A stretch of 64,000 nucleotides of DNA, from NCBI GenBank assembly GCA_050273025.1, contig CP158635.1:2170001-2234000 (forward strand). The letters run 5' to 3'. Position 1 is the first letter of the stretch; each line of letters starts with the position of its first letter. The translations under genes were made by a program, and so were the position numbers. Shown piece by piece: positions 19,085-57,704 of the stretch. This DNA is from Cenococcum geophilum. Taxonomy: Eukaryota. The notes under the pieces are model-generated. The model ran no database searches and was not told the DNA's origin. It was given only the letters and a program-made list of their open reading frames with translations.

Positions 19085-19182
19085 TATTCTGCCACGGTGG
19101 TTAAATTAACCAATTACGATTTTCCATCCCTAGGATGGAAAATCGCCATTAGCTCGCTTAGCACTAGCGCCTTGGCGGCCCT
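19085..19182 (+). other. Shared hairpin/CCAAT-like cassette, copy in the Copia C 3' UTR
   Basis: AACCAAT + perfect 13-bp stem CGATTTTCCATCC-CTA-GGATGGAAAATCG (19117-19145) + CCATTAGC; homologues in B, E and next to F. Confidence 0.85.
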
Positions 19183-19404
19183 TAAGATCTAACTTATAGC
19201 TCGTCTACGGCCCGTCGGAAGGATGTACGGTTTATTTTACGGACCGTAAGTAGGACTTACGGCTAGCTTGGAGTACCGTTTGGAAGGCAGACTAGACGGC
19301 ACCTCGGGGAGGATTTCCTATATATTTTCTTACGTCTTTTATAGTTCTGTTAAGGCAATTACGGAGGCTATACGCAAGTGGTTCCATTTTCCAAGTACCG
19401 CTAG

Positions 19405-19723
19405 TGTATAATTACAGCACCTGTTATACCAACCGCGTGCTTACGCGCTCGATACACCAAGTACGCGTTTACACGTTTGGTGTACCTACTCGCTTACGCG
19501 TTTGGTGTACCTACTCGCTTACACGTTTGGTGTACCTACTCGCTTACGCGTTTAGTGCACTCCTAAAACACTAGCTAGTTAGGGGGGAGGTGCGTTAGTA
19601 TATAGACCACGTAGCCCACCTTAATAGAATTGACAGTTACTATTATCTAAAAGAGCATACGATATTATACGTATTTCGTGCCCCTGGATCTAACTCACTT
19701 GTGCTATTAAATTGGTACGAATA
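19405..19723 (+). repeat. Copia C 3' LTR (319 bp, two extra 25-bp tandem units)
   Basis: TGTATAATT...GGTACGAATA, then TSD GATAC. Confidence 0.93.
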
Positions 19724-21156
19724 GATACCCTATAATTATACTAGATTAATATCTACCTAGGACCCCCTAATTAAATCGTCTATAATATAGGAAAGAACTT
19801 CTTATTTATAGAGTTTTAATAACAGATAAAGGCAATAGTAATTAAGGTTAAGGAAGTCCCTATTAAGGCATATAATAGTATTAGAAAAGTAGAACAATAT
19901 TACACACTATTACGCCGCGTATATAAGATTATCTCTTTAGAACTAGAGGATGCTAGTAAAGAACTTACCTTATAAATAGCTGTTAAAGCTATTAACAATT
20001 CTGCTAGCCCGGATGGACTTATACCTATATTACTAGTCTTTAGCGCCTACCCTTAAATAACTAACAATTCTTTACTATCTCCCTTTATTATATAATAAGC
20101 TAAGGCTATTTATAACGCAATAAAGGAGGTATAACGTCTCTACGCTATACGCTAGGTTAACAACGTATTAGGAATAAGAAATGGCCTAAACACCTTAACT
20201 ACGCTTAATCTACTACTCTAGTCTAAGGTACGCGTATAGCGTAAAAAGGGAGGGTGGTTAGGCCTATATTAACTTATTATAATTAATAGTTAAACTTATA
20301 CTATTTAAATGCCTTATAGACCTACTTAATTCTATTTAACTATTATTAAGCCTTATTATAAAGATAATAGTTCTAAGCCTTTATAGGATACTATAAAAAA
20401 TACCCTAGAGGAGAACTATAATTAATATGCTCTAGAAGGCAACTATAATCCTAATATAATTATAGTAGATATGCCGCAACTATAATACGGTAGAGGTCGC
20501 CTAAAGGGATTATAAAATTATTAATATCTTATTAATTTTAAAGAGCAATTTGTTGCCGCTATTAAGAATAAAGTTAAGCTATTAATAGCCTTTATAATAG
20601 CTAAGGAGAAGGCTAACTTTAAACTGTAACGGAATCTTATAACAGGAACTATAATAGGCTTATTAATAGGCTGGGTATATAGGTAATGCAAATTAAAGTT
20701 AACAACGTAATAATAACTGGTAGGGTGGTTGCCTAATAGATTAACTCTAATTATATTCTAAGAATTACTATAAGGAAGGAACTATCTAGGTAGGAACTAA
20801 GGGTCCTTAAATACACAACCGTACTCTTATAAAATCCTTCTTATATATAATATATATACGCTCTATCTACTCTATTACGGATTATATAGATCCTATAGAT
20901 TATATAAATTATATTATATAACCTTAGTTACTATTCTTTATTATATAGCTCTATCGGCTCTATCTTAAACCGTACTTATATTAACTAACTAGCTTCTTTT
21001 AACTCTTCTCTAAGTAGTTATAATATTATACTTAAAGCGTCCGTAACACTATCTCCCTTCTCTTTATCTTTGTTTTTAAAGATTCTAAATATCTCTAAGT
21101 TATTTACTAGAGGTATAATATCCGTCTAATTAATTTAGTTAATATTATTGCTTATT

Positions 21157-21860
21157 ATACCTAAAGCAATTTCTTCTTCCTTAACTGCTTATCGCACTCA
21201 CACTATCGCTATAATATTATCCCTTAGTGAGATTATACTATCTCTATATTCTTACTGTTTAAAAAAGGGGTTAGTTTATATTGCATTAGTAAACCTATCT
21301 TCGCAATAACCATTTTCTTACTTAAAGTACACTAAAGCAAATATTTATTCGTTTTATAACGTCCGCTCTATCTCTAATCCTAAATATACGCGACTTATTA
21401 CTCTTAATAGTTATTTAGTTCTCTAGTTAATTTATTTTAAAGTTTTATATTTAATTTATTACTACGCGGCTAGATAATAAACTGTCTATTACTTTAGCGG
21501 AACTATACTATTCTTATAATACTAAATAGAAGGCTGCTAATGCTTAGTAATAGGCCCTTAAGTCTTATCTTATAGCGTCCGCTCAGTTAATCCGTCTTAA
21601 AAAGGTACGTAAGAAGGTCTATTTTAAGGAGTAGAAACTTATAAAATAGGGTCTATAGGAACTTAGTAATAAAAAAACGGATTCTCTTTTAATAGAGAAG
21701 GAAATAGATCTAAGTAGTTTAGTAACTACTCTTTTTAGGTCCCCCTTAGGTAACTTATTCTTTAGTAATCCTTCTTTATTAATACTACCTAACCTAATCT
21801 CTTCTAATACTCTTATACCTTTTCTATAGCGTTTTTTTAAATTTTCTAGTAGCTCCTAGG
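21157..21860 (+). pseudogene. Antisense accessory gene of A3: Zn(II)2Cys6-like domain plus coiled coil; exon 1 21157-21385, putative intron 21386-21473; 3' end approximate
   Basis: De-RIPed consensus of three copies gives CX2CX6CX13CX2CX8C spacing; an 88-nt (G)TACGC...CTAG intron restores the frame. Confidence 0.7.
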
Positions 21861-24081
21861 TAGTCTTAGTATAGCCTATCTACTTAACCTCGTACTATAT
21901 TTTGTCGTTAATATCCTTATAGTTAATAATCTTTAAAACTTACTATTTATCCTCTTCTTGCCCTCTATATATGTCTACTTCGTAAATTAGTAACTTAATA
22001 TTTCTATATACTAGCTTTAGTATTACAATATACTATATAGGGTAGATCTTTATCTTAGCTAGTAGGTTTAACTTAAACGTAACTAGTGAAATCCTTTCTA
22101 TAATTTTAAAAGGTCCTAGTCTAACATAGTCTAACTTCTTACTTAGTTATTAACTCTTAAAATTTTTATATAGTAGCTATACTTTATCTCCCTCCTTAAG
22201 ATCTAGTCCCTTAGATCTCTTAGTATTATAGTACTTTTTTATTCTCTTTTATACTTTCTTTACTAATTCTATAAGGTTTATATAAAGATTTATTAACGTC
22301 TTTATCCTTTCTTTTACTATACTACTTATTTTCTTTACTTGCTATAGTAATAATAATATTCTTAGCTTATATCTATAATTCGCCTTAAATAGTAATATAC
22401 CTATTCCTTCTTAAGGTGTTATATTATATATAAATTATATAACTAGTAATAGCAATACCTAATTGTTCTATATATAATTAATATAGTGTTTTAGATACTG
22501 TTCTAGTATCTAATTTAATCTTTCTATTTAACTATCTGTCTGCGGATAATATATAGTAGAAGTTACTACTCTAACTCCTTATTCTACTAAGAATACCTTT
22601 TAAAATACTGCTATAAATCTTAGATCTCTATCTAATATAATCTTACTTAATGCTCCGTATCTTACAAATACTTCCTTAATATAAATTTTAGCGATATCTT
22701 CTACTAATATCTCTTCTATGCACACTATAAAGTATCCCTACTTTATAAGCTTATCTACTATTACTAAGATTATATTATAATCTTATCCGGTAATAGGATC
22801 TCTTAACTTTAATAATTTTATAATAAAGTCCTATAATATAACCTCCTATAGTCTCTCTAGTATTTTAATAGGTTATAGCCCTCTATATGGCCTATACCTT
22901 ATTAGCTTATTCCTCTAACAATCTAAATATTCCTTTATAACTTTTCGCGCTAAGCCCTAGATTTTATTAATAATATACTCCTCCTAGAGTCTTAATACTA
23001 AGCCCGTAGCTCTATTATATCCTTAAGTTATTCCCTTATAGAATTCCTCTATAAATTGCCCTACTATGCTTTTTAGGATATACTTAGCTTTCCGGTTTTT
23101 GTATATATCTATTTATAGATCTTTTAGTTATACTTTTAGAATTCTTTATACCTAAAAGCTTTTTAATAGCTTATAAACTCTTTTTAGTTCTTCCTAAGTT
23201 ACTATAATTTTTAGATAATTATACCTAATTAATCCGTCTATATCTTTTCGTAGTAAAGCCCCCAATAGCTTTTCTTCGTTTTATAGTTTAGCTTTATAGC
23301 TTAAAGCATTCGCCCGCGTATTATCTATACCCTTAGTATACTAAACCTTAAAATAGTATTCTATAAGCATCTTTACCTATCTAACCTATTTTTAGTTAAG
23401 TTCCTTTATTATTAGGAATCCTATTAGGTTTTTATAATCTATCTTAACTATAAATAGTTTCTTTATACCTTATAAAAATACTCTTTATTTCTTTAATGCT
23501 GTAACTATACCTAATAACTCCTTATTATAGATATTATAGTTTAACTCTAGTAGTATTATCTTTCGACTATAATATGCTATTAGGTGCCATCTATCTTAAT
23601 ATATCTATATAAAGTATACCTTTAGTATATAATCTAATATATCTATTTCTATAACCGTCTCTAGTCCTAGTTAATAAATTTTAAGAACTAGCTCTTAGGT
23701 AAATAACTCTTTAATTTTCTTAAAAAGTTTTTACTATTCCTTTCTCTATGCCTATAGTTCCTCTTTCTTTATTAATTACGTAAGTAGCTTAATATCCTTT
23801 AACTACTATATTATAAACCTTCTATAGTAATTATAAAACCCTAAAAATAATCTTAACTATATAACGTTCTCTAGTTCTTACTAATTTACTATAGCCTTAA
23901 TCTTCTTTAAATCTATACTAAGTTAGCCTAGTTTAATAATAAATTTAATAAAATCGGTCTTTCTAGTAAAGAACTTGTATTTCTTAATTGCTACTAGCAT
24001 CTATTCTTTTTATAGTCTTTTTAAACCCTATTTAACGTGTTCTCTATATTCTTCCTTAGTTATTAAGTAAATAATAATGTT

Positions 24082-24166
24082 GCCCGCGAAGCCCTACTGC
24101 ACACGTCTATGTCGCCGCGGGTGGAAACATCATCGGGAAATCATTCCTTATAATGGCTAAGTGCAG
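24082..24166 (+). ncRNA. HDV-like self-cleaving ribozyme at the LINE 5' end
   Basis: P1 GCCCGCG(24082-88)/CGCGGGT(24116-22) with G.U first pair; P2 CTGCAC(24097-102)/GTGCAG(24161-66); P3 ACG/CGC around a 7-nt L3; GG 24123-24 (P1.1); P4 24128-39/24144-55; J4/2 GCTAA with C24157. Confidence 0.82.
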
Positions 24167-24496
24167 AGGCGATAGAGGAGAGCCGTCGCAGCGCGCGCAG
24201 CGCGCTGGTGTTGCGACTCTGTAGTGTTAAGCCTACAACGCGTACATCGCCCTTAACAACACCAGGAGTCCTACTGCCCCCACTTAGGGCTCCTGCCATA
24301 CTATCTAGGGGGGCCATTAAGGGAAACTAGGATACAAAAACCGCCTAACGTATAACTACCTGGCTCGCAGCCAGGCCCGAAACTAGCCTTATTTAGCTAG
24401 TTAACATAAACACGCCCTAGGCGTATAATAGGACACCCTTAGGCTTACACTAGCTCTAAGACCAAGAGGATACAGCGAGGGTATAGGGAACCTCTT

Positions 24497-24995
24497 TTTA
24501 TAAGAACTTGTTAAGGTTAACGCGTCGCAGATACTTTATATAAAACTTATTAAGGCCCCAAGGCCACCATAAAGAACTTATTAAGGCCCTGCCTAGAGAA
24601 CTTGTTAAGGCCCCTCTATAAGGGCCTATTTGGTATCTAGTACACCCAGGTAACTTAGAAGAGGGTCTTAATAGGCGTAGTGCGCGCGACCTAAACGACG
24701 GCAACGCGCCAGTAATATAACGGTAACGCGATAGCGACCGGACGGCGACTAGACGGCTTAACGAGGTGGAAACACAGGTAAAGCTCTAGGCAGCGGAAAT
24801 ATAGGCTAGCTTTAACGGCCCCATGGCGTTCAACTTATAGTTAACTCATAGTTAACTTACGGTCGACTTATAGGCAACTTATAGGAGGGTCTTAATAGGC
24901 GTAGTACACGTAACCTAATGCGTATATACACAAGGCGACTCACAGGAGGGTCTTAATAGGCGTGGTATACGTAACCTAATGCATATATATAGGGG
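24497..24995 (+). repeat. Internal repeats in the LINE 5' UTR
   Basis: About four AAGAACTTGTTAAGG-like units at 24500-24610; GAGGGTCTTAATAGGCGTAGT.. at 24661, 24886 and 24946 (last two form a 60-bp tandem). Confidence 0.8.
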
Positions 24996-25599
24996 AGGCT
25001 GTAGGGGAAATATAGGCCAGTTAGACAAGGACTTAACAGTTAAAAACATAGGCTAGCTTATAAAAAGGGGAGACATAAGCTTAGTTAGTAGGAGGGGGAA
25101 GAGCAGGTTACCTAGTACGGGACCTAGTCTTTACAGCCCCCCTCCTATAAGACACGGTCGGCCTATTATAAAAAAACTCTTATAGGTAACGCGAAACGGG
25201 AACTAGTAGTATATAGGGTGTTACGCCCCTATATTACTACTAGCTTCCTATAGGGCGTAGTATATAGTAGCTACTGCTGGCTTTAAGGACCTTATCCCTT
25301 AACTGGGCTCTAACCTTTAGTGCACTTAGTAGGCAGGTAGGATTACACCCTAGCCAGAAAGATTACTACGTAGCTTAAGAGAACGGATACGCGTATTAGT
25401 ATATTAACAGACGGAACCATTTACCTCTAGGGCGGCTTGCCGGTAAGATATACTTAAGGAGTAAACAGGAGTTACTTAGGCGGGAAAGGCAGTAGCTCGG
25501 CCTCGTCCGTAGAAGGTATACCCAACTATATTACAGGATGCAGCTACGACGCCTTTATAGAATTATGTTAGTAGGCGCGAAGATAGGAGTTACAACCCC

Positions 25600-27340
25600 T
25601 AGAAATAGCAGCTTATACCTACGCCAATAGAAATAATAAAGAAGGCGTAAAACTAGAGGCTATAGAAGGCTCCTAAGCTGTGTAAAAGCGTACTAACTCT
25701 AGGAGGAAACTCTTATACAGACTACTAGGGGGTAGACTAGTACTTAGGTAATACCATTATAAGATATCTAAAAGAACTAGTAAAATTCCCTACAATTAGT
25801 AGTAGCAGCCAACTGCTTATAGTTTAGGACTAAAGCACTAAAAAACTGGGGTAGAGGCCTAAATAAGTAGGCATATTAAACTCTACTATATTACTAGCTA
25901 ATATATAACTACCTACAAACTAATACAGCTAGCAGAATGGCTCCGCCAGTTTAGCGAACCTTAGGCGCCCCTCTAGCAAACCCTTAATTAAATCCTCTAA
26001 CGGCTAAGTAAAATTAAAAACAAGTATAACCCCCCCTTACCGGCGAACCGTACCTAGGCCGCTATAGCTGCGCTTTTACAGCACAAGGAACCTACCCCCC
26101 TTAAGTTAACAACCGGGTATATAATTACAATATAACCAAATATAGAATAAGTAGAGGGGCTTAGGGGACAATTAGAAATAGAAGTCCTTATAAAGATACG
26201 CAAAGAGGTCCACAACGCTATTATAATCCGACACCTTAAGAGCGGAGACATTAGAGTTACCCTAAAGGACTAATAGGCAAAGGAACGAGCCATAAGGGCA
26301 GGGGATAGGCTAGGAGAACGTATTAGCATAAAAGTACTCCATAAGGATTACCCAGTCAAGGTCCCAGCGGTTCCTATAAGCCTTAGGGTAAAAAAGGAAC
26401 GCTAGGCGGACAACACAGCAATTATATAGGAGATAGTAAGACAAATGGAACGCCTTATACTAGGACTCAAAATCACCTAAATCTAATAGCTTTAACAGGA
26501 AAATGCAAACTAAGTATATAACGAAAACAACAAGAGGATATAAGGGTCGCCGGAAACTCGCTAGGGAGACGCTAGACAAACGCATAGCTCCCTTATTATC
26601 AGTATACATATACTAGGAATGCAAAAACTCCTTATCCAAAAAGGAATAATTATAAATGGCCTTATATATAACACAAGGCTCTACAACTATAGACTACGCC
26701 TAGAATAATACTATCGCTATATATAATAGGGACACACCTAATCTATATACGCAGCACAGGTGTACTGCGGCCACTATATAGGCCCCTACAATATAAGATA
26801 TTGCTTAAATCAAAACTAAATAAAATACGCGAACTGCCACTGAAGCATATATAAGGCATAGGAGAGAGAAAACTACATTAAATACAGGAAACGGAAGGCA
26901 AGGGCTTAATAGCTGCAGGAATAACTACACACTAGATTATATAAATGAAAACAATAGGCGATAAGCTAGGGGGACGCAGGCGCCTTCCTAGCGTTTCCTA
27001 CCTTTAATATTAGAGGGCTAGGCTAGCTATCCCAAGCCTTAACGGGCCAAAAGCGACGCCGTGTGATATTACTAGACCAATTAGGGATATAAGGGTTATA
27101 GGGGACATAAGGGAGAGGACGCCCCGTAGGAAGACCCCTATGGACAGCAATAGCAGGCTTAAAACCAGAACAATTAAGAATTAGACTTAATGCGGCAAAT
27201 ATAACATTCGCAGCCGACCTATAAAGGGTATATAGCCAACTAGTAAGAATAGGGGAAGAACTGGTAATAATAACAAATTCAAATATAGAAGCGCTAATAG
27301 GAACACAAGATATAGGAATGGAAAGCTCTATATAAAATAA
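25600..27340 (+). pseudogene. LINE ORF1 (gag-like, three CCHC zinc knuckles), RIPed; boundaries approximate
   Basis: De-RIPed QCYRCxQWGHTQSVC ~26705, CGHCAGPH ~26764, CANCH ~26825. Confidence 0.75.
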
Positions 27341-27459
27341 ATAGTAACTAGGGTATAGATATAAAAGATAGAAGCTCTAAATATCCTAGAGAAAGTGGAA
27401 ATAGAAGAAGTAAGGAACAAAGGAAAGTTAAAAAACCCTCGCTAGGGGTCCGCTACCTA

Positions 27460-30400
27460 TCCATTATATAGTATAACTGCGGCAACACAAACCACCGCCT
27501 TATAAGGCCCCTACTAGACAGTCTAGACCTAAAGAAATACTATATTCTTGCTATACAAGAACCATATTATAATACCTTCATACAATTAACATACTGCCCC
27601 TAAGAATTCCAGCTCCTATACGAACCAAAAGCAGCTATACGCGTGTGCTTTATAATCAGCAAGGCTATCAGCCTATCCTTATAGTTATAGCAGGCAGTTA
27701 ACCTAGATATTACAGTTATAATAATCTAAATATATAGGGGACCGGTATAAATTATTAATATATATAACCCTAGGGTTAAAGGGGTCCTATAAATAGAGAA
27801 TATTATATCGGCAATAAGCTTACTAGAAACCAAAGGTATAGAGTCTATCCTACTAGGAGACATAAACCTCCACTACCCGCAGTAGGGGGGTATCCATATT
27901 ACTATAGATTAATAGTTAGAGTACCTACTAAGAGCTATAGATATCTAGGGCCTTAAGCTAGCTACCCCCCTAGGAGCAATTATATGGTAATAAGGTACCG
28001 CTAAAAGCACAATTAACCTTACATTTATAGACAAAGGCCTATACTAGAGACTTAAAAGGTATAACCCTAAAGAAGAATAGGCACTTACCCTAGACTATAT
28101 CCCTATCCAAATACAGCTAAACCTAGATACTAAAGCGCAACTAAATAGAAAAAGATACGCAATAAGGAAGCTTAAGATAGACAGTTTCCTTAATATAGTT
28201 AAACAACAACTTTAAAACCTAGAAGAAATCCACCTAATACCAAACAAGCGAGGCTTATTGGCCACCCCCAAGGAAATTAACCGAAGACTAGAAAGGATCC
28301 AGGCAGCAATTAAAAATAGGCTAGAAGAGCACTGCCCGATCTTAAAACCGGGCCCCTATATACAACACGCATGGTCCATATAATGTGCAGTTCTGGTTAC
28401 CAGCTAATAATAAGCAAGAAGGAAATATATAAATAGCCATAACCCTAAAGATAAGAGATAATATAAAGACATAAGAAACTAGCTAAAGAATACCCTAAAA
28501 AAAGAAGCAAGGAATAACTGGAGACGGTTTATAAACAAGCATACTTCTAACCCGAGCCTCCCCCATAATAAGGGCCTTTGGGCTATAACAAAATGGGTAA
28601 AGAAAAAGGTAGGGCGCCTAGCAAAAGACCTATACCTATTACCCTTACAAAGAGCAGAAGAATTACAGGCTATAAACAACAACAATAAGAAGGCAAAGAT
28701 CCTTATAGAAAGGTTCTTCCCCTAACCAGCTCTAGCAGACCTTAGTAATATTACAGGCAAAACACCAGTAACTTACCTACGGGTCAACAGCGACATAACA
28801 ATAGAGGAAATGGCTAGAACTATTAGCCGTCTTTTAAATAATACAGCACTAGGACTAGATGGGATTCCAAATAAGGCCCTAAAAACCTATAGGCCACTTA
28901 TAGCACCTTAGCTTACAGATATAGCCAGAGCATGCTTTACTATAGGCTACTACCCACAACTTAAAAGATCTATAACAACGGTTATCTTATAAAAAGAAGG
29001 CAAAGCAGATTACTTAATCCTAGGAAGCTACCGCCCTATTACCTTAAAAAACACCCTTAATAAGATCTTAGAAAGGGTAATAGCGGAACATATAGCAGAT
29101 ACGGCAAAGGAACACACCCTACTACCACAAAGCTAAATAGGGGCAAGAAAGAACCGCTTAACACTATTAGCACTTACGCTACTCGCTACCACCATTAAAT
29201 CTATATAGGCGATGCGAAAGGACTTTATAGTATTAATGCTTAGCCTAAATATTAGTGGTGCCTATAATAATATACCCCATAAGCGTCTTCTGCATATCCT
29301 TAGGGCAAAGGGCTTCCCAAAATAAATTATATAATTTATCCAAGGGTTTATAGGCCAGAAAGAAACATTACTAGTCTTTAACGGATACTAGAGCCCCCCC
29401 ATTATAGTTATAACAGGAATACTATAAAAATCACCCCTTTTACCTATACTCTTCCTTTTCTTTATAAGCAACCTACTTAACTCCTTCAAAAAAAGGGCGA
29501 CTTAGGGGATAGGCTTTGTTAATAATATAAACCTAATTATATATAGGCCAACAGCCGTAGAGAATTACAGAACACTAGAGAAAGCCTATAACACTTATAT
29601 AGAATAGGCAAAACGTTATAGAGTCTAATTCTTACTAGAGAAATACTAGCTAATCTATTTTATAAGAAAACGCAACCAATCTATAGATCTTTAGCATATA
29701 ATTTATATCTAAGGCTTTAGGGGTTAACCAGTTCAGGGCCTAAGGGTATTAGGAGTATAGGTAGATAGTAAGCTCCGGTGGAGCGTATATACGGCATAAG
29801 CGGCCTATAAAGGCTAAGCACAGTTTATCGCTTTATTTAGAATTATTAACTTTATATAGGGTCTATGCTTCTAGAGGTTACGCCTACTATATATAGCAGT
29901 CGTCCGGCCAACCATAATATATAGATCCAGTATTTGGGCTATTAGAGAAACTAAAAAGGGCCCCCCTAAATTACTCCTTAAACTACTTTAAAAGGTCTAA
30001 ATAGCCTACCTTTAAAGTATTATAGGCGGGTATAAGCAAACGGCCACAGCACTGCTTAAGAAGGAATCCAATATTCCCCCCCTATAGTTATATATTAAAG
30101 CCGCTATAATATAAAGGACATAAAATAAACGTAACTCTAATATTATAAAGTATATTAAGACACGCCTAAGTAAACTATAGAGGGACCTTAGGGTGCCCTA
30201 TAGAAGAACAAACCAATAACTCTAAAGTAGGGAAGAGATATTAGAGAAACAGGTAAAGAAAGCAGAAGAAGAATAGTACCGCTTTAGGGCCCAGGCCCAT
30301 ATAGAGGAGGAAGGAAAACGTATAAGAGGTTAGCAAAGACAATAGTAAGATAAAGAAAGGAGCTAAAGTAGAACATATAAGAATGCCGGGAAACCATCTA

Positions 30401-30900
30401 CTGTAATGCAATACTAGTTGGACCAATACTAGAGAGGCGAATAGGAGTTAAAGGTACAGAGGCTAACTTAAGCAAGACAAACCCAAGCCATAGCATAGTT
30501 AACGCTATAGGGGGTAAATACCTAAGGGCTCCGAGAAGGCCTAACAAAGGCAGAAAATATAATAGTAACACTCTTAAGAACAGGAATAATAGGACTAAAA
30601 GATTGGCTTTACTGGGTAGGTATCCTAGTAGGTAGCCCAAGATACGAATATAGCTAGCTAAGATAGATACCAAAACACGTAATACTGCTATACCCCCTAT
30701 ATACTAATTAAGAAATAATGCTCTTAGCAGCTAGTATAGAGAACTATAATACACTACTCTTAATATAAAAAGGCCTTAAGGCGGTCACCTAGTGGCTTAT
30801 TAGTTAAAATATACTAAATCAGTTCTAGGTTATAAGGGAAATAGTAATAAAAGGCAAGGGGGTAAGCAGTAGGTGCCCCCTAGTAACTCTACAGTAATAG
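27460..30900 (+). pseudogene. LINE ORF2 (APE endonuclease plus reverse transcriptase), RIPed; boundaries approximate
   Basis: IxQYNCG ~27463; ILAIQEP ~27543; LLGDxNLHHP ~27848; APGPDGIPN ~28845; SYRPI ~29026; GFVDD ~29512. Confidence 0.85.
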
Positions 30901-36900: not shown

Positions 36901-37309
36901 GTTACTTAAAGCGTTCTAGTATTAGAGATATATAGAATAGTTAGCGGAGTTAATATAGCAATTGCAATTAGAACTACCCTAAAGATAATTATAAATCGAC
37001 TTGAACTTCCTGTTATCCCTATAATTATCTGCACTAACTTATATTCCCTTTATAAGTATTTAGTTAAGCTTAGTACTATAAAGGAGAAGCACCTTATAAT
37101 CGATATTATAGCACTTTAGCAATTCTATAAGCGTTAAGAACTCTTTAAGATTTAATAGATTAATGGCTAAGATAACCCGGTAAATATAATAATAAAGGCG
37201 AACCTAAATAAGGCACTAAAGACGTTTGTTAATATAAATACTCTACATATATAAGTTAAAGGTTAGGTTAAAAGGGAGTCTCTAGAAATTTCCTAGTTAT
37301 GTAAGGTCT

Positions 37310-40034: not shown

Positions 40035-40057
40035 TATAGTAGTATTATTTACTAGGT

Positions 40058-47100: not shown

Positions 47101-50100
47101 CCCCCTTACTAACCATAGGACTATAAAATTAAGATCACCCCCAGAAACTAGGCCCCGTACTATAAAAATAAACTACTTTTACCTACTAAACTTAGGTATG
47201 TAAAGAAGTAGATTAATAAGATACTAGATAAGGGTTTTATCCGTAAATTAACCTCACTAGCTACCGTACCACTTCTCCTTGCTGCTAAGCCCGGCGGCGG
47301 TGTATAAATCTACTATAATTACTAAGGCCTAAATATAGTTACTATTAAGAATTAATACCTACTGCTACTAATCCGCGAGACACTTAACGCACTTTATAGT
47401 GCTAAGTACTTTACTAAACTTAATATAATTGCTACGTTTAACTAGATCCGGATTATAGAGGGCTATAAATAGCTTATAGTATTTATTACCCAGTTTAGAC
47501 TCTATAAAATGCTAGTTATACTATTTAGCCTCTATAATATACCCGCTATATTTTAAAACTATATTAACCATGTTTTATATAACGCCCTTAACAACTACTA
47601 TACTGCCTACCTTAATAACGTCCTTATCTTTTCTAAAATACGCGCCGAGTACACTAAGTATATAAATAAAATTATCTAAAGACTTGGTAATACTAGACTT
47701 TGAATTAATATTAATAAGTCTAAGTTCTACTCTACTAAAATAAAATACCTCGGCCTAATTATCCTAACTAATAGCATAACTATAGACCCTAAGAAGGTAC
47801 AGGCCTTATAAAAATAAAAGGACCTAATATTAATTAAAGAACTATAATAATTTCTTAGCTTCGCGAACTTCTACTAATAATTTATTTAAAGCTACTTTGC
47901 TATTACTATACCTATAACAAAACTCCTAAAGAAGGATATTAGATAGCTATAGGGATTAAAATAAGCTAAATTATTTAAGGCCCTTAAGGGAGCCTTTACT
48001 TTAGTACTAGTACTAGCATACTATAACTACACGAAGAAAACAGTAGTAGAAACAGATGTATTAAATTAGGCTTCTAGCGGAGTCCTTTCCCAGTATAATA
48101 ATAACGGAAAATTAAGACTAGTCGCATTCTTCTCCGCAAAGCACTCTACGCTAGAGTATAACTATAAGATCTATAATAAAGAACTCTTAGCTATCGTTAA
48201 GGCTTTAAAGGAATAGCGTCCTAAGCTATAAAGGACTAAGGAGCTGTTTAAAATTATTACTAACTATAAAAACCTATAGACGTTTATAACTATTAAGCAG
48301 CTAAACTAGCGCTAAGTTTAGTAGGCAGAGTTTCTTTTATAGTTTAACTTTGTAATTATATATAGACCTAGTAGTAAAGCTATACTCCCTAACGCCCTAA
48401 GCTGGCTACTAGGAATAAGGCCTAAGGACGCTAATAATAAACGCCTCCGCTACTAAGCCTAAGTCGTTATACCGCCCCAAAAAGTTAACCCTATAATCTT
48501 AGAAGAATTACTATATAAGTCCCGTAACTCTAACGATATAGAGTTTATAGCCGCTCTAGACCCTAAAATAGCCGAAAAGTTACTAGACGAGTTAATTTAG
48601 CTAGGATACTAGGAGAATAAACTCGTAAGAGATATAGTAGTAGCCCTATGTAATTAGAAAGCTCACTATTAGCTAAAGAAGATTAGGAAATTACTCCGCT
48701 ATAATAAGTTAGAATGTAGTATTATTAACGGATAGATCTACTTCCGCTAACGTCTTTTTGTCCCTAACGCCCTAGACCTCCGCCTAGAAGTTACCTATTA
48801 CTCTTATAGTAGTGGCCCCGCTAGTTACCCTAGCTAGGTTAAAACTCTTAACCTCTTAAATTAAATATATTAGTGGCTAGGAATCTCCTAGTTTATAACT
48901 ACCTTCGTTAAAGACTATACCCTATACTTTTATACTAAGACCCCCTATTCTGCCCCGCCTGGTTTTTTAAAGCTACTAAAATTACCTACTTGCCTATAAA
49001 CTAATATCTTAATTAACTATATTATAACGCTGTTAATATACTAACGCTACGGCAAGGTATATAAATATATCCTTATTATTATAGACCACCTAACTAAAAT
49101 ATAACACTATATTCTAGTAATAGGACTCTTAATAGAGGAGCTAGTTAATAGCTTTATTAATAATATATATAAGCTCTACGGTGCACTAAGCATAATTATC
49201 TCCAATCGCGGCATATAATTTATTAACGACTTCTAGCAATAACTAAGTAAACGCCTTAAGACAACCTTATAACTAAGCTTAGCCTAGCACCTAAAAATGG
49301 ACGGCTAAACTAAAATTATTAACGCTGCTATAAATAAATACCTCTGTACTTTTATTAGCTTTATATAGAATAACTAGGTTAACTACCTACCGCTCGCTAA
49401 GTTTACTATAAATAACCAAGTTAATAAGAGTATAGGCATCTCCCCATTTTTTATAAACTATAGCTTTAACCCTTGCCTCGAAATCGAGCCTACTGGCCCC
49501 TACCTACTAACACTATTAGTATAAGTAAAGAAGGAGTTCTTCTGTATAGACTTTATAGCCAACTGCTTTAAGCGGATATTAATACAGCTTAAGGCCCTAG
49601 CCCGGATTTTATAGCAACGCTATAAAGATAATACTAATACCCGTAGAAATAAGAGCGTGTTATTCTATAAAGGTAATATAGTTATAGTTAGCTTAGAAAA
49701 TATAAAGATAAATAGACCTAAGAAGAAATAGGACAATAAATAGGACGGCCCGTACCCCGTACTCGCAGTATACTAAAGGGTAGTCGTAGTAAACCTCCTG
49801 GACCATATTTAAGTAAATAAATCCTTTTATATATCTAAGGTCCGCCTTTAAGCTGCTAAAGAGATCCCTAGCTAAGTAAATATTAATATTATAAAGCGCC
49901 GTAATGTACAAAGATGAGTGGTAGAGAGAGATAATAACGGCAATATAGAAGATAAATGGGAGTTTAAAAAAATCCTTAATATACACAACAAAGACCCCTA
50001 GGGCCTAACTTATAAGATTAAATGGAAATATTATAAGGATATAACCTGGCAGCTAGAGGAAGACTTAAAGGGTTATAAATAAGCTATATAGCGCTTTTAT

Positions 50101-50163
50101 AAGCAACACCCTAAGAAGCTAAGACCCCCAGACTGGGTATAAGATAAGAAAAAGTCACGCTAA
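44140..50163 (+). pseudogene. gag-pol: RIP-inactivated gag and pol of E (boundaries approximate)
   Basis: Protease LVDSG ~45814; RT AYLDDV ~47605; RH VETDAS ~48046; integrase ISDRG ~49198; chromodomain WEFEKIL..YxIKWK ~49957-50060. Confidence 0.86.
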
Positions 50164-50199
50164 GGTCGCGGCTGACCACCGTATTAAAATTTATGGTGG

Positions 50200-50412
50200 T
50201 TGAGATGTTATAAAACTTTAACCGGCGGTTAAAGTTATCTAATTAGCTAAATTCTTACTAAGAAACGCCATACGGATTGATTTGGGTGGCGGTATAGAGT
50301 TCTGCCAACCTTACTTACTAAACTAACTAATTAAGATTTTCTATACCCAGCATAGAAAATTACTATTAGCTTAGTTAAGGGCGGTAAGCGGAACTAATAT
50401 CTTCGCGGTAAA
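50200..50412 (+). other. Shared cassette, copy in the Gypsy E 3' UTR
   Basis: AACTTTAACC-GGC-GGTTAAAGTT (50214-50236); GATTTTCTAT..ATAGAAAAT (50335-50360); tail TAAGCGGAACTAATATCTT shared with the F copy. Confidence 0.85.
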
Positions 50413-53400
50413 AAATAGGCAACCCTATATACTGCCTATTTTTAAGTTATTTATTTAGTTTAGGGACCAAACCATTTAGGGGAGAGGAGTACTATTACGG
50501 CACTAACCTGACGCATACTATTTTATACTATCTCGTACTGTTTCCTACTATTAGCTAGCCTACCACTAGCGACTTAGCGGCTGGCCTTACTATTTATATA
50601 TAATACCCCCTTTCTACCTTCTTCTCCTCTTTATACTATAACGTAGTTATTTAGTCTACTTTATTGCAGCACTGTAATAAGAAGCCTATAAGAGATAGAG
50701 TAAGAAACTATAGAAACCTAGAGGTTAAGGATTTAGTAATTATAGGACTAAGGAGTAAAGGCTAAACTAAGGATCTTAGTAGTAGAAGATATTTAGGCGG
50801 ACTTTATAGTAAAGTTAATAGTTTAGAGATAAAGCTTATATAAATTGCGGGAAATAAGGTTATTTTATAAGGGATTATAAAGATAGTTAGAGTTACTATA
50901 TAATAAAGGGAACTAAACTAGTAGTAGAAGATATATATATATAGAGGGATAATAGTATACTGTAAGGAATAAAAGAGTATTTAATTAGAAGTTTCGCGTT
51001 TTATTATAATAACATATACCAAATTTATAAAGACGCTAAGTATAGCGCAAGCTATTGGCTATAAGAGCTATATTTAACGGAATGTAAAGGAACCAATAAA
51101 CTAGTTCGCAGATTAGATATTAAGGATAATAGCTTTAATAAAGGTAAAATATTTTATAATAATAAGGTAATAAGGGCCGCTTACTAGGAGTAAGTAGACC
51201 TTAAAGATATTATATAAAAGGTAGAGGACGATTCTACTATAGAATAGGGAACGTTAGTAGGGATTAAGACCCTACTAGATATAATATCTATCGCTTCGCG
51301 AGACGTAAGAGAAGTAGGGCAGTAAACTACTTTAGCATTTAAAAAAGGTAAAAGGCTAAAGGCTTAAGATTTTTAAGACGAGATAAAAGATAACTAAGAT
51401 TTTTAAGACAAGATAAGGTATACCTAAGGACCTATAATAGACGAAAACTAATAGAGTAGGGCAGTAGCTTAGTTTAAAGATATATAAATAAGTTTAGGAT
51501 AGAGTTTCCTATAAGTATAAGACTCTTAAGATAAAATAAATAAGATTTAAGACTTTTAAGATAAGATAAGAATATTAAGCAAGCCTAGTTAAACTAAGGC
51601 TAGAGTAAAGCTTAAGTTAAAAGCGAGCTTAGGATTAAAGAATTTAAGGGATTAAGAATTTAGAGTATAAATAAGGATACCTATAAATAAGAGGCAAGCG
51701 GCTTCTTTATAGATTAGAGAATTTATAGCATAAATAGTAACTAGACTAGGAGACAGATATATAGACCTAGAAGACTTACTAAGGGAACGTAGTGTTTAGC
51801 CTAAAGATTAAAAAATTAATACCAAGATTAAGAAGTAAGAAGACTTTAAGGATCTATTTATAAGACGCAAACTAAAGGAAACTATAGAAGAATTTAGGTA
51901 AAGAATTATCGTATAGTAAGAATAGAAACTAGATAAGAGATCTAGTATATTAAGACGTATAAGGGATAAGGTACTAGTATAAAGAATTACTAATAGGCCT
52001 AGAGCGGGCATACTAAGAGCTAAGTGGCTTATTAAATTGGAAAATAAAGAGGATCTAGGGATTTTAACTAGGTTTAAAGAACGATATATAAAAGGCTGTT
52101 ATAATATAGTAATAAAAAGATACTTCCTTATAAATAAGCCGTATACACTTTAGTAGCTGTATTAAAGGTAGTATAAACAAAGGCATAATAATAAGTGGGA
52201 AGATTTCTATATATAGTTAAACGAGAAAATTATCTAAAACCACCTAATTATGGAAAAGGCTATAAGTTATATTAAAGGAGCCTTAATTATATTATTAAAG
52301 GATCTAAAGGAGCGGTTGGAGGACTAGAGAAGTAAATAACGTATCTTAATACCTGCGAATAAAGTTATAACGCTTAGATTAATATAAGAAAGGTTTAAAC
52401 TTAAGAGTAAAAATAAGCTAAGAGTTAACCTAAGACACTAAGTATATTATACGCTATTATAGATCATATATATAGATAACGTGTATAATATATATAAAGC
52501 ACTAAAGAATAAGTACTAGAAATACCCTATAAGAATATATTAGTTAGTAAAGAAATAAAAGTATTAAAATGCTAAGTATATATATAGCTGGCATCTAATA
52601 AAAGTTTAGAAGTTAGGTAACTTAATACTTTAGCTAAAAAGATTCCTTACAAAAGAATACCTAAATAGATAATAGTAGTAGGAATACCTAAAGAATATAT
52701 ATTTATAGTATATTAAAGATAAAAAGTAAACTAAGTATTGGCTTAAGTTAAACTAAGTATAAATAGGATTAAGCAGCTAATAGTTAGGAAAAGTAGAGGC
52801 CTATAAAACTAAAGGGAGCTAGTAATAAAGCCTTAGACCCTTAAAGGAATTTAAAAATAACACCTAAATTTATAAATTAATTAGTAAGATTAACAGTTTA
52901 AGGCACTAATAGATAGTGGAGCAATAAGGAACTATATCTCGCTAGCAGTAGTTAAAAGGATAGGTTTACTATATAGGAAAAAGAAGCACTCTTACCTATT
53001 AGTAATAATTTTAGGAGATCTAATAGCCTACAGAGGAGGCATTATTAATCTTAAAATAGGACCTATTTAGTTAACTATTAAAGGGAGATAAATTAAGATG
53101 TCTTTTAATATATTACTATTAGGGAATAATAAGGCAGTACTAGGAATACCTTAATTATAGGAATATAATCTAAAGATTAATTAGGTTATAGGTTAGGTTA
53201 ATATTAGAGATACTTAATGCTATAAAATGCAATAATAAGCTAAAATAGTATAGTACTAATTTGGAGCGATATATAAAGAAACTAAGTAAGGCTTAAGTTA
53301 TATACTAAAGAGATACTATAAGTATGGTAAGAAACTATAGTTACTAGAAAGTAAGAAGCTATTAGAGTATATAGTATAGGATTATAAGATAGAATTAGAA

Positions 53401-54989: not shown

Positions 54990-55693
54990 ACCTAGGAGCT
55001 ATTAGAAAATTTAAAGAATACTATAGGAAAGGTATAGAAGTATCGGAAGAGATTAGGTTAGGCAGCATTAATAAAAAAAGATCGCTAAAGAATAAGTTAC
55101 CTAAGGGGAACCTAAAAAGAGTAGTTACCAAACTACTTAGATCTATTTCCTTCTCTATTAGAAGAAAATCTATTCTTTTATTACTAAGTTCCTATAAACC
55201 CTATTTTATAAGTTTCTACTCCTTAAAACGGACCTTTTTATATACCTTTTTAAGACGGATTAACTAAGCGGATGCCGTAAGATAAGACTTAAGGGCCTAT
55301 TGCTAAGCATTAGCAGCCTCCTATTTAGCGTTATAAGAACGGCGCAGTTCCGCTAAAGTAATAAATAGTTTATTATCTAGCTGTGTAGCAGTAGATTAAA
55401 TATAAAACCCTAAGATAAATTAACTAGGGAACTAGACAACTATTAAGAGTAATAGGTTGCGTATATTTAGTATTAGAGATAGAGTGGACGTTATAGGATA
55501 AATAAATATTTGCTTTAGTATACTTTAAGTAAAAGGATAGTTATTATAAAGATAGGTTCGCTAATATAATATAAACTAACCCCTTTTTTAAATAGCAAGA
55601 ATATAGAGATAGTATAATCTCACTAAGGGATAATATTATAGCGATAGTGTGAGTACGACAAGTAGTTAAGGAAGAAGAAATTACTTTAGGTAT
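54990..55693 (-). pseudogene. Antisense Zn2Cys6-like accessory gene of A4 (3' end approximate)
   Basis: Collinear with the A2 and A3 copies, including the CTAG acceptor. Confidence 0.68.
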
Positions 55694-57569
55694 AATAAGT
55701 AATAATATTAACTAAATTAATTAGACGGATATTATACTTCTAGTAAACAACTTAGAGATATTTAGAATCTTTAAGGACGAAAATAAAGAGGAGGGAGATA
55801 GTGTTATAGACGCTTTAAGTATAATATTATAACTACTTAGAGAAGAGTTAAAAGAAGCTAGTTAGTTAATATAAGTACGGTCTAGAATAGAGCCGATAGA
55901 GCTATATAATAAAGAATAGTAACTAAGGTTATATAATATAATCTATATAATCTATAGGATCTATATAATCCATAATAGAGTAGATAGAGCGTATATATAT
56001 TATATATAAGAAGGATTTTATAAGAGTACGGTTGTGTATTTAAGGACCCTTAGTCCCTACCTAGATAGTTCCTTCCTTATAGTAATTCTTAGAATATAAT
56101 TAAAGTTAATCTATTAGGTAACTACTCCACTAGTTATTATTACGTTATTAACTTTAATTTATATTACCTATACACCCAGCCTATTAACGAGCCTATCGTA
56201 GTTCCTGCTATAAGGTTCCGTTACATTTAGTTATAGGAAAACCTTAGTACTAAGTTATAAATAAACTTATATAGTTTTAAGAAGTTAGATAAAATTAAAG
56301 GTTTATATACTTTTCTAAACTAAGAATATGTAGTAGGATCTATTTTTATAGTGCCGAGGTAGTTATAAGTATAATATATTAAGTAGAGTCTATAATATAG
56401 TATAGTATAATTTAAACCCTTTATTGCTAAACCTATACGCCCTTATATTGCTTATATATATCTCTAGATTAAAACTAGCTACGCAAGAGCTTTATAACCT
56501 TAGTTTAATTTTAGTAGTTTAGTTTAGGGACGCTTTAAAATAAACGGGTATATAATTTTTTTAATAGTTATATCCTTACTTTATACAGAGTATTACTATA
56601 GTGTTTACGGCCTTCTTAATATACTCCTCATTATCTCCCAGCTTAATAATATTTTTTATTAAATATTAATTTTACTTTTAGCCCATCTACTTCTAGGTAA
56701 GTAACCGTTAGCCCTCGTCTTAGATTCCTTTTTAAAGAGAATACTAGTAGCTATAGGGGCGAGCTAATAGGCATTCTAGCTGTAAGAATACATTTATTTA
56801 TAAATAATAAAGGCGAGTTAACTAATATAGGTAATCCTTATTAGGGCGGACTTGGTATAATATTAATGCCTCTTTTTAAATAGGTATTAATAGCTAAAAA
56901 GCTAATAGATTTATTATATTAAAAGTATATTGCAAATATATTTATAGTATAAGAGCTAAGCTTTCTCCTACTTATTTAATTTTAATATTAGTAACTTTTA
57001 GTCTTATAGTAGCTAGTTTCCCACTTTTTAGTAAGAGGTCCTTATTTAGAATAAGGAAGCTAGTTAAGTATCTTCTTAAATTATACTTATTTACTACCTA
57101 GACTAATATTATCCTTTTTAATATCTTATGCGCAAGTATAAAATTAGTCGGTTATAGTTAAGTAGTGTTCCTAATACTACGTCTTAGATAATTAAGCTTA
57201 TTAATTAAAGCCTTATTAACCCCCGCTATTACTTTATAAAGTAGGTAAATGGTAAGCTTTTAGGTGGTAGAAAGAAAGTAGTAAAAGACTATATATTTAA
57301 GTGGTCTGTTAAAAATACCTTATCTTTAGATTTAAAGGAGTACTACTTAATGCTAATTAACTATAAAGCCTCTAACTTTTATAAAGAATATTATTAATTT
57401 ATTGCTTAGCTCCTTTATATAGTACGAGAGTTCTACTAGATAAAGATATAATAAATATTATTATTAATTCTATTTAATTTATCCTTTAACTAATCGCGGC
57501 TATATTTAAGGGTTATTAAGGGCAAAAAGGTAAAGTTTTAAATAGGGGTTCCTAATCTAAATAGTCTAC

Positions 57570-57704
57570 TAAATTTAGGTAGTAGTGTAGAGTTCTACTA
57601 GCTCTAATTATTAAATAGACTAATTATAATTTTCTATCCCTAAGATAGAAAATTACTATTAGCTTAGTAAAGGCGATAAGCGGAACTAATATCTTTGCAG
57701 TAAA
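57570..57704 (+). other. Shared cassette, copy downstream of (and antisense to) Gypsy F pol
   Basis: TAATTTTCTATC-CCTAA-GATAGAAAATTA (57627-57655); both flanks match the E copy. Confidence 0.8.

What the first reader, a model, noticed from the sequence alone, without database searches (positions are those of the whole stretch)
19085..57704. One mosaic hairpin/CCAAT cassette shared by unrelated Copia and Gypsy elements
Seen: four elements with no other visible nucleotide similarity (Copia C 19085-19182, Copia B 37310-37497, Gypsy E 50200-50412, beside Gypsy F 57570-57704) carry, just after pol, the same core CCAAT-[GATTTTCYAT..ATRGAAAATC hairpin]-CCATT(G)GC. The modules are shuffled: B+E share the upstream AACTTTAACC hairpin and the loop type; B+C share one tail; E+F share another tail and the GGTGGCGG..GAGTTCTGCC segment; C+F share a loop type. 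It is sense in B, C and E but antisense to F pol. Inference: a cis-element exchanged between superfamilies, such as a paired CCAAT-complex enhancer or anti-silencing site, a structured RNA, or a tiny hitch-hiking element. I know no description of it.
Basis: partly seen in the sequence, partly recalled or inferred. Interest (0 to 1): 0.8.

Follow-up and report, generated by a model that had tools for sequence, protein, structure and literature searches.

The report
Shared CCAAT-palindrome cassette in fungal retrotransposons
An ~80-base non-coding module, made of two inverted CCAAT boxes around a perfect palindrome plus a fixed tail, sits just after the polymerase gene of many otherwise unrelated Copia and Gypsy retrotransposons of one RIP-mutated fungus, so these selfish elements appear to trade a common control or recombination signal.

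Summary
All four copies lie at the stated places (4 matches; 0.04 expected by chance). One pattern scan found at least 134 more distinct copies in public metagenome contigs.

The conserved core is about 80 nt: CCAAT, a 3-nt spacer, a 27-nt perfect palindrome, a 3-nt spacer, ATTGG, then a ~28-nt asymmetric tail. Un-RIPed copies keep both CCAAT boxes.

In the window, elements B, C and E are complete, with target-site duplications. In each, the cassette is internal, between the pol stop and the 3' LTR. In one Gypsy family the cassette lies inside both LTRs. A half-cassette (ATTGG plus tail) lies in U3 of E's own LTRs.

Hosts are GalEa-clade Copia and several Gypsy families, in sense or antisense orientation. 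The sequences on either side of the cassette reassort. There is no TIR or TSD signal, no Rfam match and no usable RNA evidence. One palindrome pair occurs only as C:G or G:C, and both forms occur in most of the larger families.

Best reading (about 0.45): a DNA-level, CCAAT-complex-type promoter or UAS module of LTR origin, spread between families by recombination. Main rival: an RNA or cDNA hairpin acting in dimerisation or template switching. I found no published description.

The parts
19101..19181 (+). Cassette copy C: CCAAT 19110-19114, palindrome 19118-19144, RIPed ATTGG 19148-19152, type-1 tail to 19181. Internal to Copia C, 85 nt after the pol stop (19023-19025) and about 220 nt before the 3' LTR (starts 19405).
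37416..37496 (+). Cassette copy B: palindrome 37433-37459, type-1 tail, G:C loop class. Internal to Copia B, about 175 nt before the 3' LTR (starts 37673).
50318..50417 (+). Cassette copy E: palindrome 50335-50361, type-2 tail to about 50417. Internal to Gypsy E, upstream of the polypurine tract 50478-50491 and the 3' LTR.
57573..57709 (+). Cassette copy F: palindrome 57628-57654, type-2 tail. Antisense to the minus-strand Gypsy F pol. A minus-strand polypurine run lies at about 57862-57878, so it may lie in F's 3' LTR or its 3' UTR; this is undecided.
   Evidence: F-like loci L017, L024, L041 and L067 have the same layout
37323..37361 (+). Second module ('U') in B: a 10-bp-stem hairpin followed by a CTAATTAG-type near-palindrome. 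In less RIPed copies the latter reads as an inverted CCAAT box.
50214..50252 (+). Second module ('U') in E, homologous to the one in B.
50547..50586 (+). Half-cassette (ATTGG box plus type-1 tail, no palindrome) inside U3 of E's 3' LTR, followed by a CT-rich tract.
43822..43862 (+). The same half-cassette in E's 5' LTR.
43768..50678 (+). Gypsy (chromovirus-like) element E: 187-nt LTRs (TG..CA), target-site duplication AGAAG, nested in another repeat family.
13105..19723 (+). Copia (GalEa clade) element C: LTRs 13105-13373 and 19405-19723, target-site duplication GATAC, CHSeq1 CTGATCAGT at 13374-13382. Nested inside B.
10038..37837 (+). Copia (GalEa clade) element B, 27.8 kb because of nested insertions. 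LTRs are about 165-170 nt (10038-10204 and 37673-37837), target-site duplication GACTA, CHSeq1 CTAATTAGT at 10205-10213.

Best explanation
The cassette is a DNA-level cis-regulatory module of LTR (U3) origin. Two head-to-head CCAAT boxes are each followed by 13 conserved bases that meet at a 7-bp centre. A fixed tail follows, then in many families a CT-rich tract. Arrays of an ATTCTGCC-type decamer often lie upstream.

I infer that the fungal CCAAT-binding complex (HapB/C/E type), with perhaps a further factor on the centre or tail, binds it. It would then act as an upstream-activating or promoter-proximal element wherever it lies in U3.

Because it is the one stretch of homology between families, recombination has moved it, and the sequence around it, between many Copia and Gypsy families. 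The likely routes are template switching or read-through capture during reverse transcription. This would leave copies in the 3' UTR just upstream of the current polypurine tract, in either orientation.

Shown: the anatomy, distribution, positions, mosaicism and conservation. Inferred: protein binding, promoter activity and the route of exchange.
For: 1. Both CCAAT boxes fit the CBC site 5'-CSAAT-3' (passages of PMC7144946). The left box was not in my search pattern, yet it is kept in 135-137 of 137 copies apart from RIP changes.

2. The same paper states that CBC covers 13 nt downstream of CCAAT. Here CCAAT + 3 + 10 nt reaches exactly the edge of the 7-nt centre on both sides (read).

3. The unit is polar.
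- The (A/G/T)TTCTGCC motif averages 0.94 per copy at -150..-10, against 0.06 downstream, 0.18 further upstream and 0.11 on the other strand.
- A pyrimidine run of 12 or more lies at +70..+140 in 41 of 125 copies, against 0 of 125 at -140..-70.

4. In Gypsy family #1 the cassette lies inside both LTRs of one element (L079/L080: 240-nt TG..CA LTRs, cassette 56 nt from the LTR start). Eight of the 13 assessable copies of that family have no pol nearby, as expected for 5' or solo LTRs.

5. A half-cassette (ATTGG plus tail, no palindrome) lies in U3 of E's own TSD-verified LTRs and of 6 E-like LTRs, followed by a CT-rich tract.

6. The asymmetric tail is kept in antisense families too. Across 19 family representatives it shows 0.033 transversions per site, against 0.49 in the flanks. 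Conservation regardless of orientation fits a DNA site better than an RNA signal.

7. Flanks reassort. Upstream type U1 occurs with downstream types D0, D1 and D6. D0 occurs with six upstream types from both superfamilies. One full four-combination set exists.
Against: - In the window's B, C and E the cassette is internal, so it is absent from the 5' LTR and cannot be those elements' own promoter.
- The same holds in Copia families #0, #4, #5, #10 and #11 and Gypsy families #2 and #6. There 37 of 37 copies with enough upstream flank have pol directly upstream.
- The centre pair 9/15 switches between C:G and G:C and never takes a non-complementary form (0 C..C or G..G in 137). That pattern fits base pairing better than base-specific protein contact.
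- No TSS, binding or expression data exist.
- The TATA-like strings after the tail look like RIP products in less mutated copies.
- The stem sequence was fixed by my search pattern, so its invariance is not evidence.
Confidence: 0.45

Rival explanations
1. The cassette is a single-stranded nucleic-acid hairpin, in genomic RNA or minus-strand cDNA, that acts during replication. It could be a dimer-linkage or kissing-loop site, or an RT pause and template-switch site, in the 3' part of the genomic RNA. Sharing it would let RNAs of different families pair and recombine, which would spread it further.
For: - In every layout seen (pre-PPT 3' UTR or U3) the cassette lies in the 3' part of the genomic RNA.
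- The hairpin is strong: -31.1 kcal/mol (z -3.7) on the + strand and -47.8 kcal/mol (z -6.9) on the - strand for L063. Being a palindrome, it forms in either orientation.
- Pair 9/15 is C:G-class in 77 copies, G:C-class in 56 and other in 1 of 134. Both classes occur in 10 of the 15 largest families.
- The centre is self-complementary in both forms (CCCCGGG and GCCCGGC).
- The mosaic breakpoints flank the cassette.
Against: - The CCAAT arms and the 28-nt asymmetric tail are invariant rather than covarying.
- The tail is kept in antisense families, where the RNA would carry its complement.
- RIP hits both arms of a palindrome alike, so most double changes carry no information.
- Within the families examined, the class change fits a single event on a tree.
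- Rfam gives no match.
- To my knowledge, dimerisation sites of retroviruses lie in the 5' leader (recalled).
Confidence: 0.25
2. The cassette is a passenger without present function. Internal copies would be fossil or captured pieces of another family's LTR, by read-through capture, a polypurine-tract shift, or nested insertion followed by deletion. They survive only because the stretch between pol and the 3' LTR tolerates extra DNA. The similarity would reflect recent amplification.
For: - Internal units are often preceded by a polypurine-like run plus TG and carry LTR-like bodies. The Copia #10 unit runs TG..CA. The Gypsy #6 and Copia #0 D0 bodies match the LTR of Gypsy #1 over up to 170-215 nt.
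- Both orientations occur.
- Nearly all copies seen are RIP-mutated and lack long ORFs: only 4 ORFs of 250 aa or more in the loci of 3 kb or more, and none of them is pol.
Against: - About 80 nt stay nearly invariant at transversion level across 19-32 family representatives, while the adjoining non-coding DNA is unalignable.
- The cassette has been kept in at least 15 families of two superfamilies.
- The one internal unit I checked for a solo-LTR signature has no 5-bp target-site duplication (flanks AGCGT and CCTTA, read).
- The 9/15 pair is always complementary.
Confidence: 0.2
3. The cassette is a miniature DNA transposon (MITE or foldback element) that inserted independently into these retrotransposons.
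For: It is short and centred on an inverted repeat, occurs in both orientations and has many copies.
Against: - Flanking direct repeats are no longer than in the control that pairs the left flank of one copy with the right flank of another (132 copies).
- Inverted repeats outside the known palindrome show no excess.
- The conserved unit is asymmetric because of its tail.
- No copy was seen outside a retrotransposon-type repeat. All 51 copies that have a pol 3' end within 1.2 kb lie next to that end; 26 others have none that close.
Confidence: 0.03

Closest known systems
U3 enhancer/promoter modules of retroviral and retrotransposon LTRs (CCAAT and TATA boxes, tandem enhancer repeats; host-factor sites such as heat-response elements in plant Copia LTRs). 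Recalled, not looked up.
   Same: It has consensus CCAAT boxes, upstream tandem decamers and a downstream CT-rich tract. It lies in U3 of both LTRs in one Gypsy family, and as a half-cassette in E's LTRs.
   Different: One homologous ~80-nt sequence is shared by many families of two superfamilies. Most copies lie outside the LTR, upstream of the polypurine tract, and in either orientation. Two CCAAT boxes sit head to head around a perfect palindrome.
Conserved Hairpin Site (CHS) and 'extended CHS' of fungal GalEa Copia elements (PMC5445492; abstract, passages and section 10 read)
   Same: It is a conserved hairpin-forming non-coding element in the same Copia clade. That paper also reports non-coding blocks of 33-62 bp that are 'surprisingly well conserved' between different families within a species.
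   Different: The CHS lies directly after the 5' LTR in place of a primer-binding site and has other sequences (CTGATCAGT or CTAATTAGT). It is described for Copia only. Elements C and B carry their own CHS at 13374-13382 and 10205-10213 in addition to the cassette.
CCAAT-binding complex sites of filamentous fungi (PMC7144946; abstract and passages read)
   Same: Both boxes fit 5'-CSAAT-3'. The 13-nt conserved arm equals the stated CBC coverage downstream of CCAAT.
   Different: The HapX part of the bipartite motif (RWT 12 bp downstream) is not matched; TCC or TGC stands at that place. A paired, palindromic arrangement is not described in the passages I read. Binding was not tested.
Cassandra TRIM elements carrying 5S rRNA-derived sequence in their LTRs (recalled, not looked up)
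   Same: A conserved foreign-looking cassette is carried in the terminal region of LTR elements.
   Different: Here there is no match to any Rfam family and no cellular source is known. The hosts are autonomous Copia and Gypsy elements.
Retroviral dimer initiation site hairpins (recalled; also discussed in PMC5445492, passages read)
   Same: A stem-loop with a self-complementary centre, present as two alleles.
   Different: It lies at the 3' end rather than in the 5' leader. The stem and flanks are sequence-invariant, and dimerisation was not tested.

Membership tests
MITE / foldback DNA transposon | Target-site duplication flanking each copy | tested here: not met
   The longest direct repeat between -45..-8 and +55..+100 in 132 copies has the same distribution as the control that pairs flanks of different copies.
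MITE / foldback DNA transposon | Terminal inverted repeats at the ends of the unit | tested here: not met
   Inverted repeats outside the internal palindrome show no excess. The conserved unit ends in an asymmetric tail.
LTR U3 promoter/enhancer module | Lies between the LTR start and the transcript start, and so is present in both LTRs | tested here: inconclusive
   Met in Gypsy family #1 (L079/L080) and, for the half-cassette, in E's LTRs. Not met for the full cassette in B, C and E or in 7 metagenome families, where 37 of 37 copies have pol directly upstream.
LTR U3 promoter/enhancer module | Transcription starts downstream of it | not testable with these tools
   Raw RNA reads of run X21 gave depth 0 over E and 0.3-0.6 at B, with no start sites there.
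CCAAT-binding complex (HapB/C/E, NF-Y type) target site | CCAAT pentamer matching 5'-CSAAT-3' | tested here: met
   Left box: -9 C in 135/137, -7 A in 136, -6 A in 136, -5 T in 137; position -8 is C or its RIP product T. The right box is mirrored. Consensus taken from PMC7144946.
CCAAT-binding complex (HapB/C/E, NF-Y type) target site | Bound by the complex in vitro or in vivo | not testable with these tools
   No binding data are available.
GalEa Conserved Hairpin Site | Lies directly after the 5' LTR, with CHSeq1 CTGATCAGT or CTAATTAGT | tested here: not met
   The cassette lies 3' of pol and has a different sequence. The true CHS of C and B are at 13374-13382 and 10205-10213.
Known structured RNA family (Rfam 15) | Match to a covariance model | tested here: not met
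   0 matches in the window at gathering score. 0 matches at E up to 1 in six less-RIPed loci. No tRNA was found.
Nested solo LTR | Complete TG..CA unit flanked by a 5-bp target-site duplication | tested here: not met
   Only one family was examined, by eye. The Copia #10 unit runs TG..CA but its flanks are AGCGT and CCTTA. In Copia #0 the LTR-like body is cut short.
Retroviral-type dimer initiation hairpin | Self-complementary loop on a stable stem; RNA dimerises through it | tested here: inconclusive
   The self-complementary centre and stable stem are met. Dimerisation is not testable, and the 5'-leader position is not met.

The most novel reading that the evidence does not exclude
The palindrome is a shared pairing signal for retrotransposon RNAs. 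Genomic RNAs of unrelated Copia and Gypsy families that carry the same hairpin would kiss through its self-complementary centre and be co-packaged. Reverse transcriptase pausing at the hairpin would then switch templates. Families would thereby swap 3' ends and LTR promoters and spread the hairpin itself. The two centre alleles (CCCCGGG and GCCCGGC), present in most families, would act as compatibility types.
Probability: 0.12. Interest if true: 0.9.

Novelty: new variant of a known kind. Interest (0 to 1): 0.62.

Why it matters
LTR retrotransposon families are normally defined by having unrelated non-coding ends. Here one nearly invariant ~80-nt module is shared across two superfamilies, with the DNA around it reshuffled. 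That means regulatory or replication signals can pass horizontally between selfish elements within one genome.

If the module is a CCAAT-complex site, a single host factor could control much of a genome that is mostly transposons. If it is a pairing or template-switch hairpin, it would be a mechanism for recombination between families.

Either reading can be tested with standard assays. The module also gives annotators a marker for the 3' ends of heavily RIP-mutated elements.

Tried and rejected
- **Whole genome.** None is held for this window. The metagenome records behind the loci could not be opened as handles. So no full-contig survey and no direct search for 5'-LTR partners of the Copia copies was possible.
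- **Viral contigs.** 0 matches.
- **Earlier findings of this scan.** Nothing by place, sequence or words.
- **Pfam on long stop-masked translations.** Searches gave 0 families for Copia B and C, because RIP damage is too great. C was classified through homologues instead, and B only through its pol homology to C.
- **RNA evidence.** No RNA holder was listed. Laying run X21 (raw RNA reads) and X22-X24 (contigs only guessed to be RNA) gave no reads over E and too few at B to place any start or end. Contigs that cross the core run into other flanks on both sides.
- **TATA box after the tail.** Rejected as evidence. In less RIPed copies the string reads GT rather than AT at several places.
- **'Cassette lies in U3 of Copia B' (my earlier reading).** Rejected. 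B's TSD-verified 5' LTR starts at 10038 and matches 37673 onward. In addition, 0 copies have an LTR end plus CHS downstream of them.
- **HapX bipartite motif.** Not matched.
- **Literature.** Searches on Copia/Gypsy/CCAAT/promoter, chimeric/template switching, Cenococcum/RIP, and the two stem 10-mers found no description of this cassette. Supplements of PMC5445492 (element structures) were not read and might show the region.
Full report
**1. The observation**

The four sites are as described. A pattern for the stem and loop finds exactly these four places in 64 kb at up to 3 mismatches. Chance expectation is 0.04, and 0 of 100 shuffles reached four.

BLAST among the four regions gives C-B 82 nt at 82.9%, E-F 138 nt at 80.4% and B-E 161 nt at 72%. 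The other pairs give 53-73 nt at 78-80%.

MAFFT aligns all four over about 140 columns. The E/F tail aligns to the B/C tail with a 13-nt indel and mainly C>T or G>A differences.

The window is AT-rich (GC 0.25-0.44) and full of stop-riddled repeats, which fits RIP.

**2. The hosts in the window**

- **C is Ty1/Copia.** Its stop-masked IN-RT-RH translation finds 367 homologues. The best of them carry PF07727 (RVT_2) and PF00665.
  - C has the GalEa-clade marks listed in PMC5445492 section 10. These are ADxxTK at the end of RNase H, TDD preceded by a RIP-made stop where Q is expected, and CHSeq1 CTGATCAGT right after the 5' LTR (13374-13382).
- **B is homologous to C**. It has CTAATTAGT after its 5' LTR (10205-10213).
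- **E is Ty3/Gypsy**, with RVT_1, RT_RNaseH_2 and RT_RNaseH at 46801-48300. IN and a chromodomain-like end follow downstream, read from the translations.
- **F's pol is on the minus strand** (RT_RNaseH match).

All three plus-strand elements are complete and bounded by target-site duplications.

| Element | Span | TSD | LTRs |
|---|---|---|---|
| C | 13105-19723 | GATAC | 13105-13373 and 19405-19723 |
| E | 43768-50678 | AGAAG | 187 nt |
| B | 10038-37837 | GACTA | about 165-170 nt, starting at 10038 and 37673 |

In B, C and E the cassette is therefore internal. It lies 85 to about 210 nt after pol and 60-220 nt before the polypurine tract or 3' LTR.

**3. Copies elsewhere**

One scan of metagenome contigs used a pattern covering the stem, the loop length and the right box. 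These hold 138 matches, of which 134 are distinct. Viral contigs gave none.

The least mutated copies, such as L063, read CCAAT..ATTGG. So the boxes are original and not RIP products.

Positions that the pattern did not fix are strongly kept.
- The left CCAAT is kept in 135-137 of 137 copies, allowing C>T at its second base.
- The type-1 tail shows 0.033 transversion differences per site among 19 family representatives.
- The -18..-1 stretch shows 0.119 among 32 representatives.
- Flanks at -100..-31 and +80..+149 show 0.49, which is random.

The stem itself was fixed by the pattern, so its invariance says nothing.

**4. Context of the copies**

I used stop-masked pol pieces of the window as tblastn queries. 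This covered the 77 distinct copies with at least 2 kb of flank on one side; 57 more could not be assessed.

| Context | Copies |
|---|---|
| Just 3' of a Copia pol, sense | 25 |
| 3' of a Gypsy pol, sense | 19 |
| Next to the 3' end of a Gypsy pol, antisense | 5 |
| Next to the 3' end of a Copia pol, antisense (34-35 nt) | 2 |
| No pol 3' end within 1.2 kb | 26 |

Four of those 26 are F-like copies with the F-type RNase H 1.5 kb away on the other strand.

In Copia families #0, #4, #5, #10 and #11 and Gypsy families #2 and #6, all 37 copies with enough upstream flank have pol directly upstream. None is followed by an LTR end plus CHS. In those families the cassette is therefore internal, as in the window.

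In Gypsy family #1 it lies inside the LTR. Contig pieces L079 and L080 hold one element with two 240-nt TG..CA LTRs, each carrying the cassette 56 nt from its start. Eight of that family's 13 assessable copies have no pol nearby.

A tail-only BLAST found 74 hits.
- 64 have the exact hairpin.
- 3 have a one-mismatch hairpin.
- 7 have no hairpin at all. Six of these are E-like LTRs and one is L036:27.

So the right box plus tail exists as a unit of its own in true U3 regions. That includes both LTRs of the window's E.

**5. Architecture around the cassette**

The unit is polar.
- An (A/G/T)TTCTGCC motif, often in 10-nt tandem arrays, averages 0.94 per copy at -150..-10. It averages 0.06 downstream, 0.18 further upstream and 0.11 on the other strand. 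It is typical of 18 of 32 families.
- A pyrimidine run of 12 or more lies at +70..+140 in 41 of 125 copies, against 0 of 125 at the mirror position.

A second module lies upstream in sense or downstream inverted in 40 of 134 copies. It is a 10-bp-stem hairpin followed by an inverted CCAATCAG-type box.

**6. Mosaicism**

I clustered the 97 nt upstream and the 108 nt downstream separately.
- The Copia-B pol end (U1) is joined to three different downstream types (D0, D1, D6).
- The commonest downstream type (D0, 40 copies) follows six upstream types from both superfamilies.
- One complete four-combination set exists.

Some Copia and Gypsy families share up to 170-215 nt around the cassette. The minimum common to all families is about -18..+37, extending to about +61 among families with the type-1 tail.

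In the window itself, tail type and loop class occur in all four combinations.

**7. The palindrome**

Positions -1..25 form a perfect 13+1+13 palindrome. The CCAAT and ATTGG arms extend it after a 3x3 mismatch.

Pair 9/15 takes only complementary forms. Of 134 metagenome copies, 77 are C:G-class (including RIP derivatives), 56 are G:C-class and 1 is TT. None is C..C or G..G. Both classes occur in 10 of the 15 largest families.

Within the families I looked at, the class follows subfamily structure and fits one change per family. This amounts to several independent double transversions or transfers, which RIP cannot produce.

As RNA, the L063 copy folds at -31.1 kcal/mol (z -3.7) on the + strand and -47.8 kcal/mol (z -6.9) on the - strand.

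**8. What it is not**

- Flanking direct or inverted repeats show no excess, so it is not a MITE.
- It matches no Rfam family, and no tRNA was found.
- It is not the GalEa CHS, which lies after the 5' LTR.

**9. Mechanism**

I favour a DNA-level regulatory module at about 0.45.
- Both boxes fit the fungal CBC site 5'-CSAAT-3'.
- The conserved arm of 3 + 10 nt equals the 13 nt that CBC is said to cover downstream of CCAAT (PMC7144946 passages). Two complexes would then sit head to head and leave the 7-bp centre free.
- The upstream repeats and the downstream CT tract fit this reading. So do the true-U3 copies, and so does the conservation of the asymmetric tail in either orientation.

From my own recall, not looked up, CCAAT boxes and CT-rich tracts are the classic promoter elements of filamentous fungi.

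The weak point is that most copies are internal, where they cannot drive the element's own genomic RNA. They could be captured or fossil U3 pieces, or they could act on antisense or read-out transcription. I could not tell which.

The always-complementary 9/15 pair and the constant 3'-of-RNA position keep a hairpin model alive at about 0.25. A functionless passenger is at about 0.2 and a MITE at about 0.03.

**10. Limits**

- The copies were selected by a stem pattern.
- 51 loci have only 300-nt flanks.
- Most loci come from a few metagenome sets, probably one or a few related fungi.
- Nearly all copies are RIP-mutated.
- No RNA or binding data could be had.

Noticed in passing
window 37323-37361 and 50214-50252; 40 of 134 metagenome copies: A second mobile-looking module: a 10-bp-stem hairpin (AACTTTAACC..GGTTAAAGTT) followed by a near-palindrome that in less RIPed copies contains an inverted CCAATCAG box. 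It lies upstream in sense (families #2, #5, #6, #14) or downstream inverted (families #3, #12 and others).
   Followed up: partly
window 19042-19075 and 19202-19235: In Copia C the cassette and about 125 nt around it are bracketed by a 34-nt imperfect direct repeat. The repeat is also present in the un-RIPed relative L063. This could be a template-switch insertion scar or an insertion into an existing tandem repeat.
   Followed up: no
window 10038-37837: Copia B is a 27.8-kb nest. Its two short LTRs and the GACTA duplication enclose Copia C (13105-19723) and pieces of several other repeat families.
   Followed up: partly
L101 and L060 (metagenome loci): Two full cassettes lie in tandem about 100 nt apart behind a Copia-B-type pol end.
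   Followed up: no
L018, L047, L057 (family #9/#22): Here the cassette lies near the 5' end of a repeat unit whose similarity runs more than 3 kb downstream. My tblastn queries found no pol there, and Pfam found no family in L047. It may be a non-autonomous element. In L018 it lies 1.7 kb from an ATG7-like host ORF.
   Followed up: partly
L013, L019 (families #7, #17): In these Copia families the cassette is antisense and only 34-35 nt from the pol stop. The CT-rich tract that follows it on the cassette strand reads as the polypurine tract of the minus-strand element.
   Followed up: no
window 39867-40347: Contigs of runs X22-X24 pile up here with summed word depth of 1700-4900, far above the rest of the stretch. 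Raw RNA reads of X21 also lie on 40348-41309. This marks an abundant or expressed repeat piece unrelated to the cassette.
   Followed up: no
window 37425-37471 in runs X22-X24: Contigs match only the cassette core and then run into other flanks: ATTCTGCC-type sequence before it and a type-2-like tail behind it. So less-RIPed cassette variants exist in those runs.
   Followed up: no
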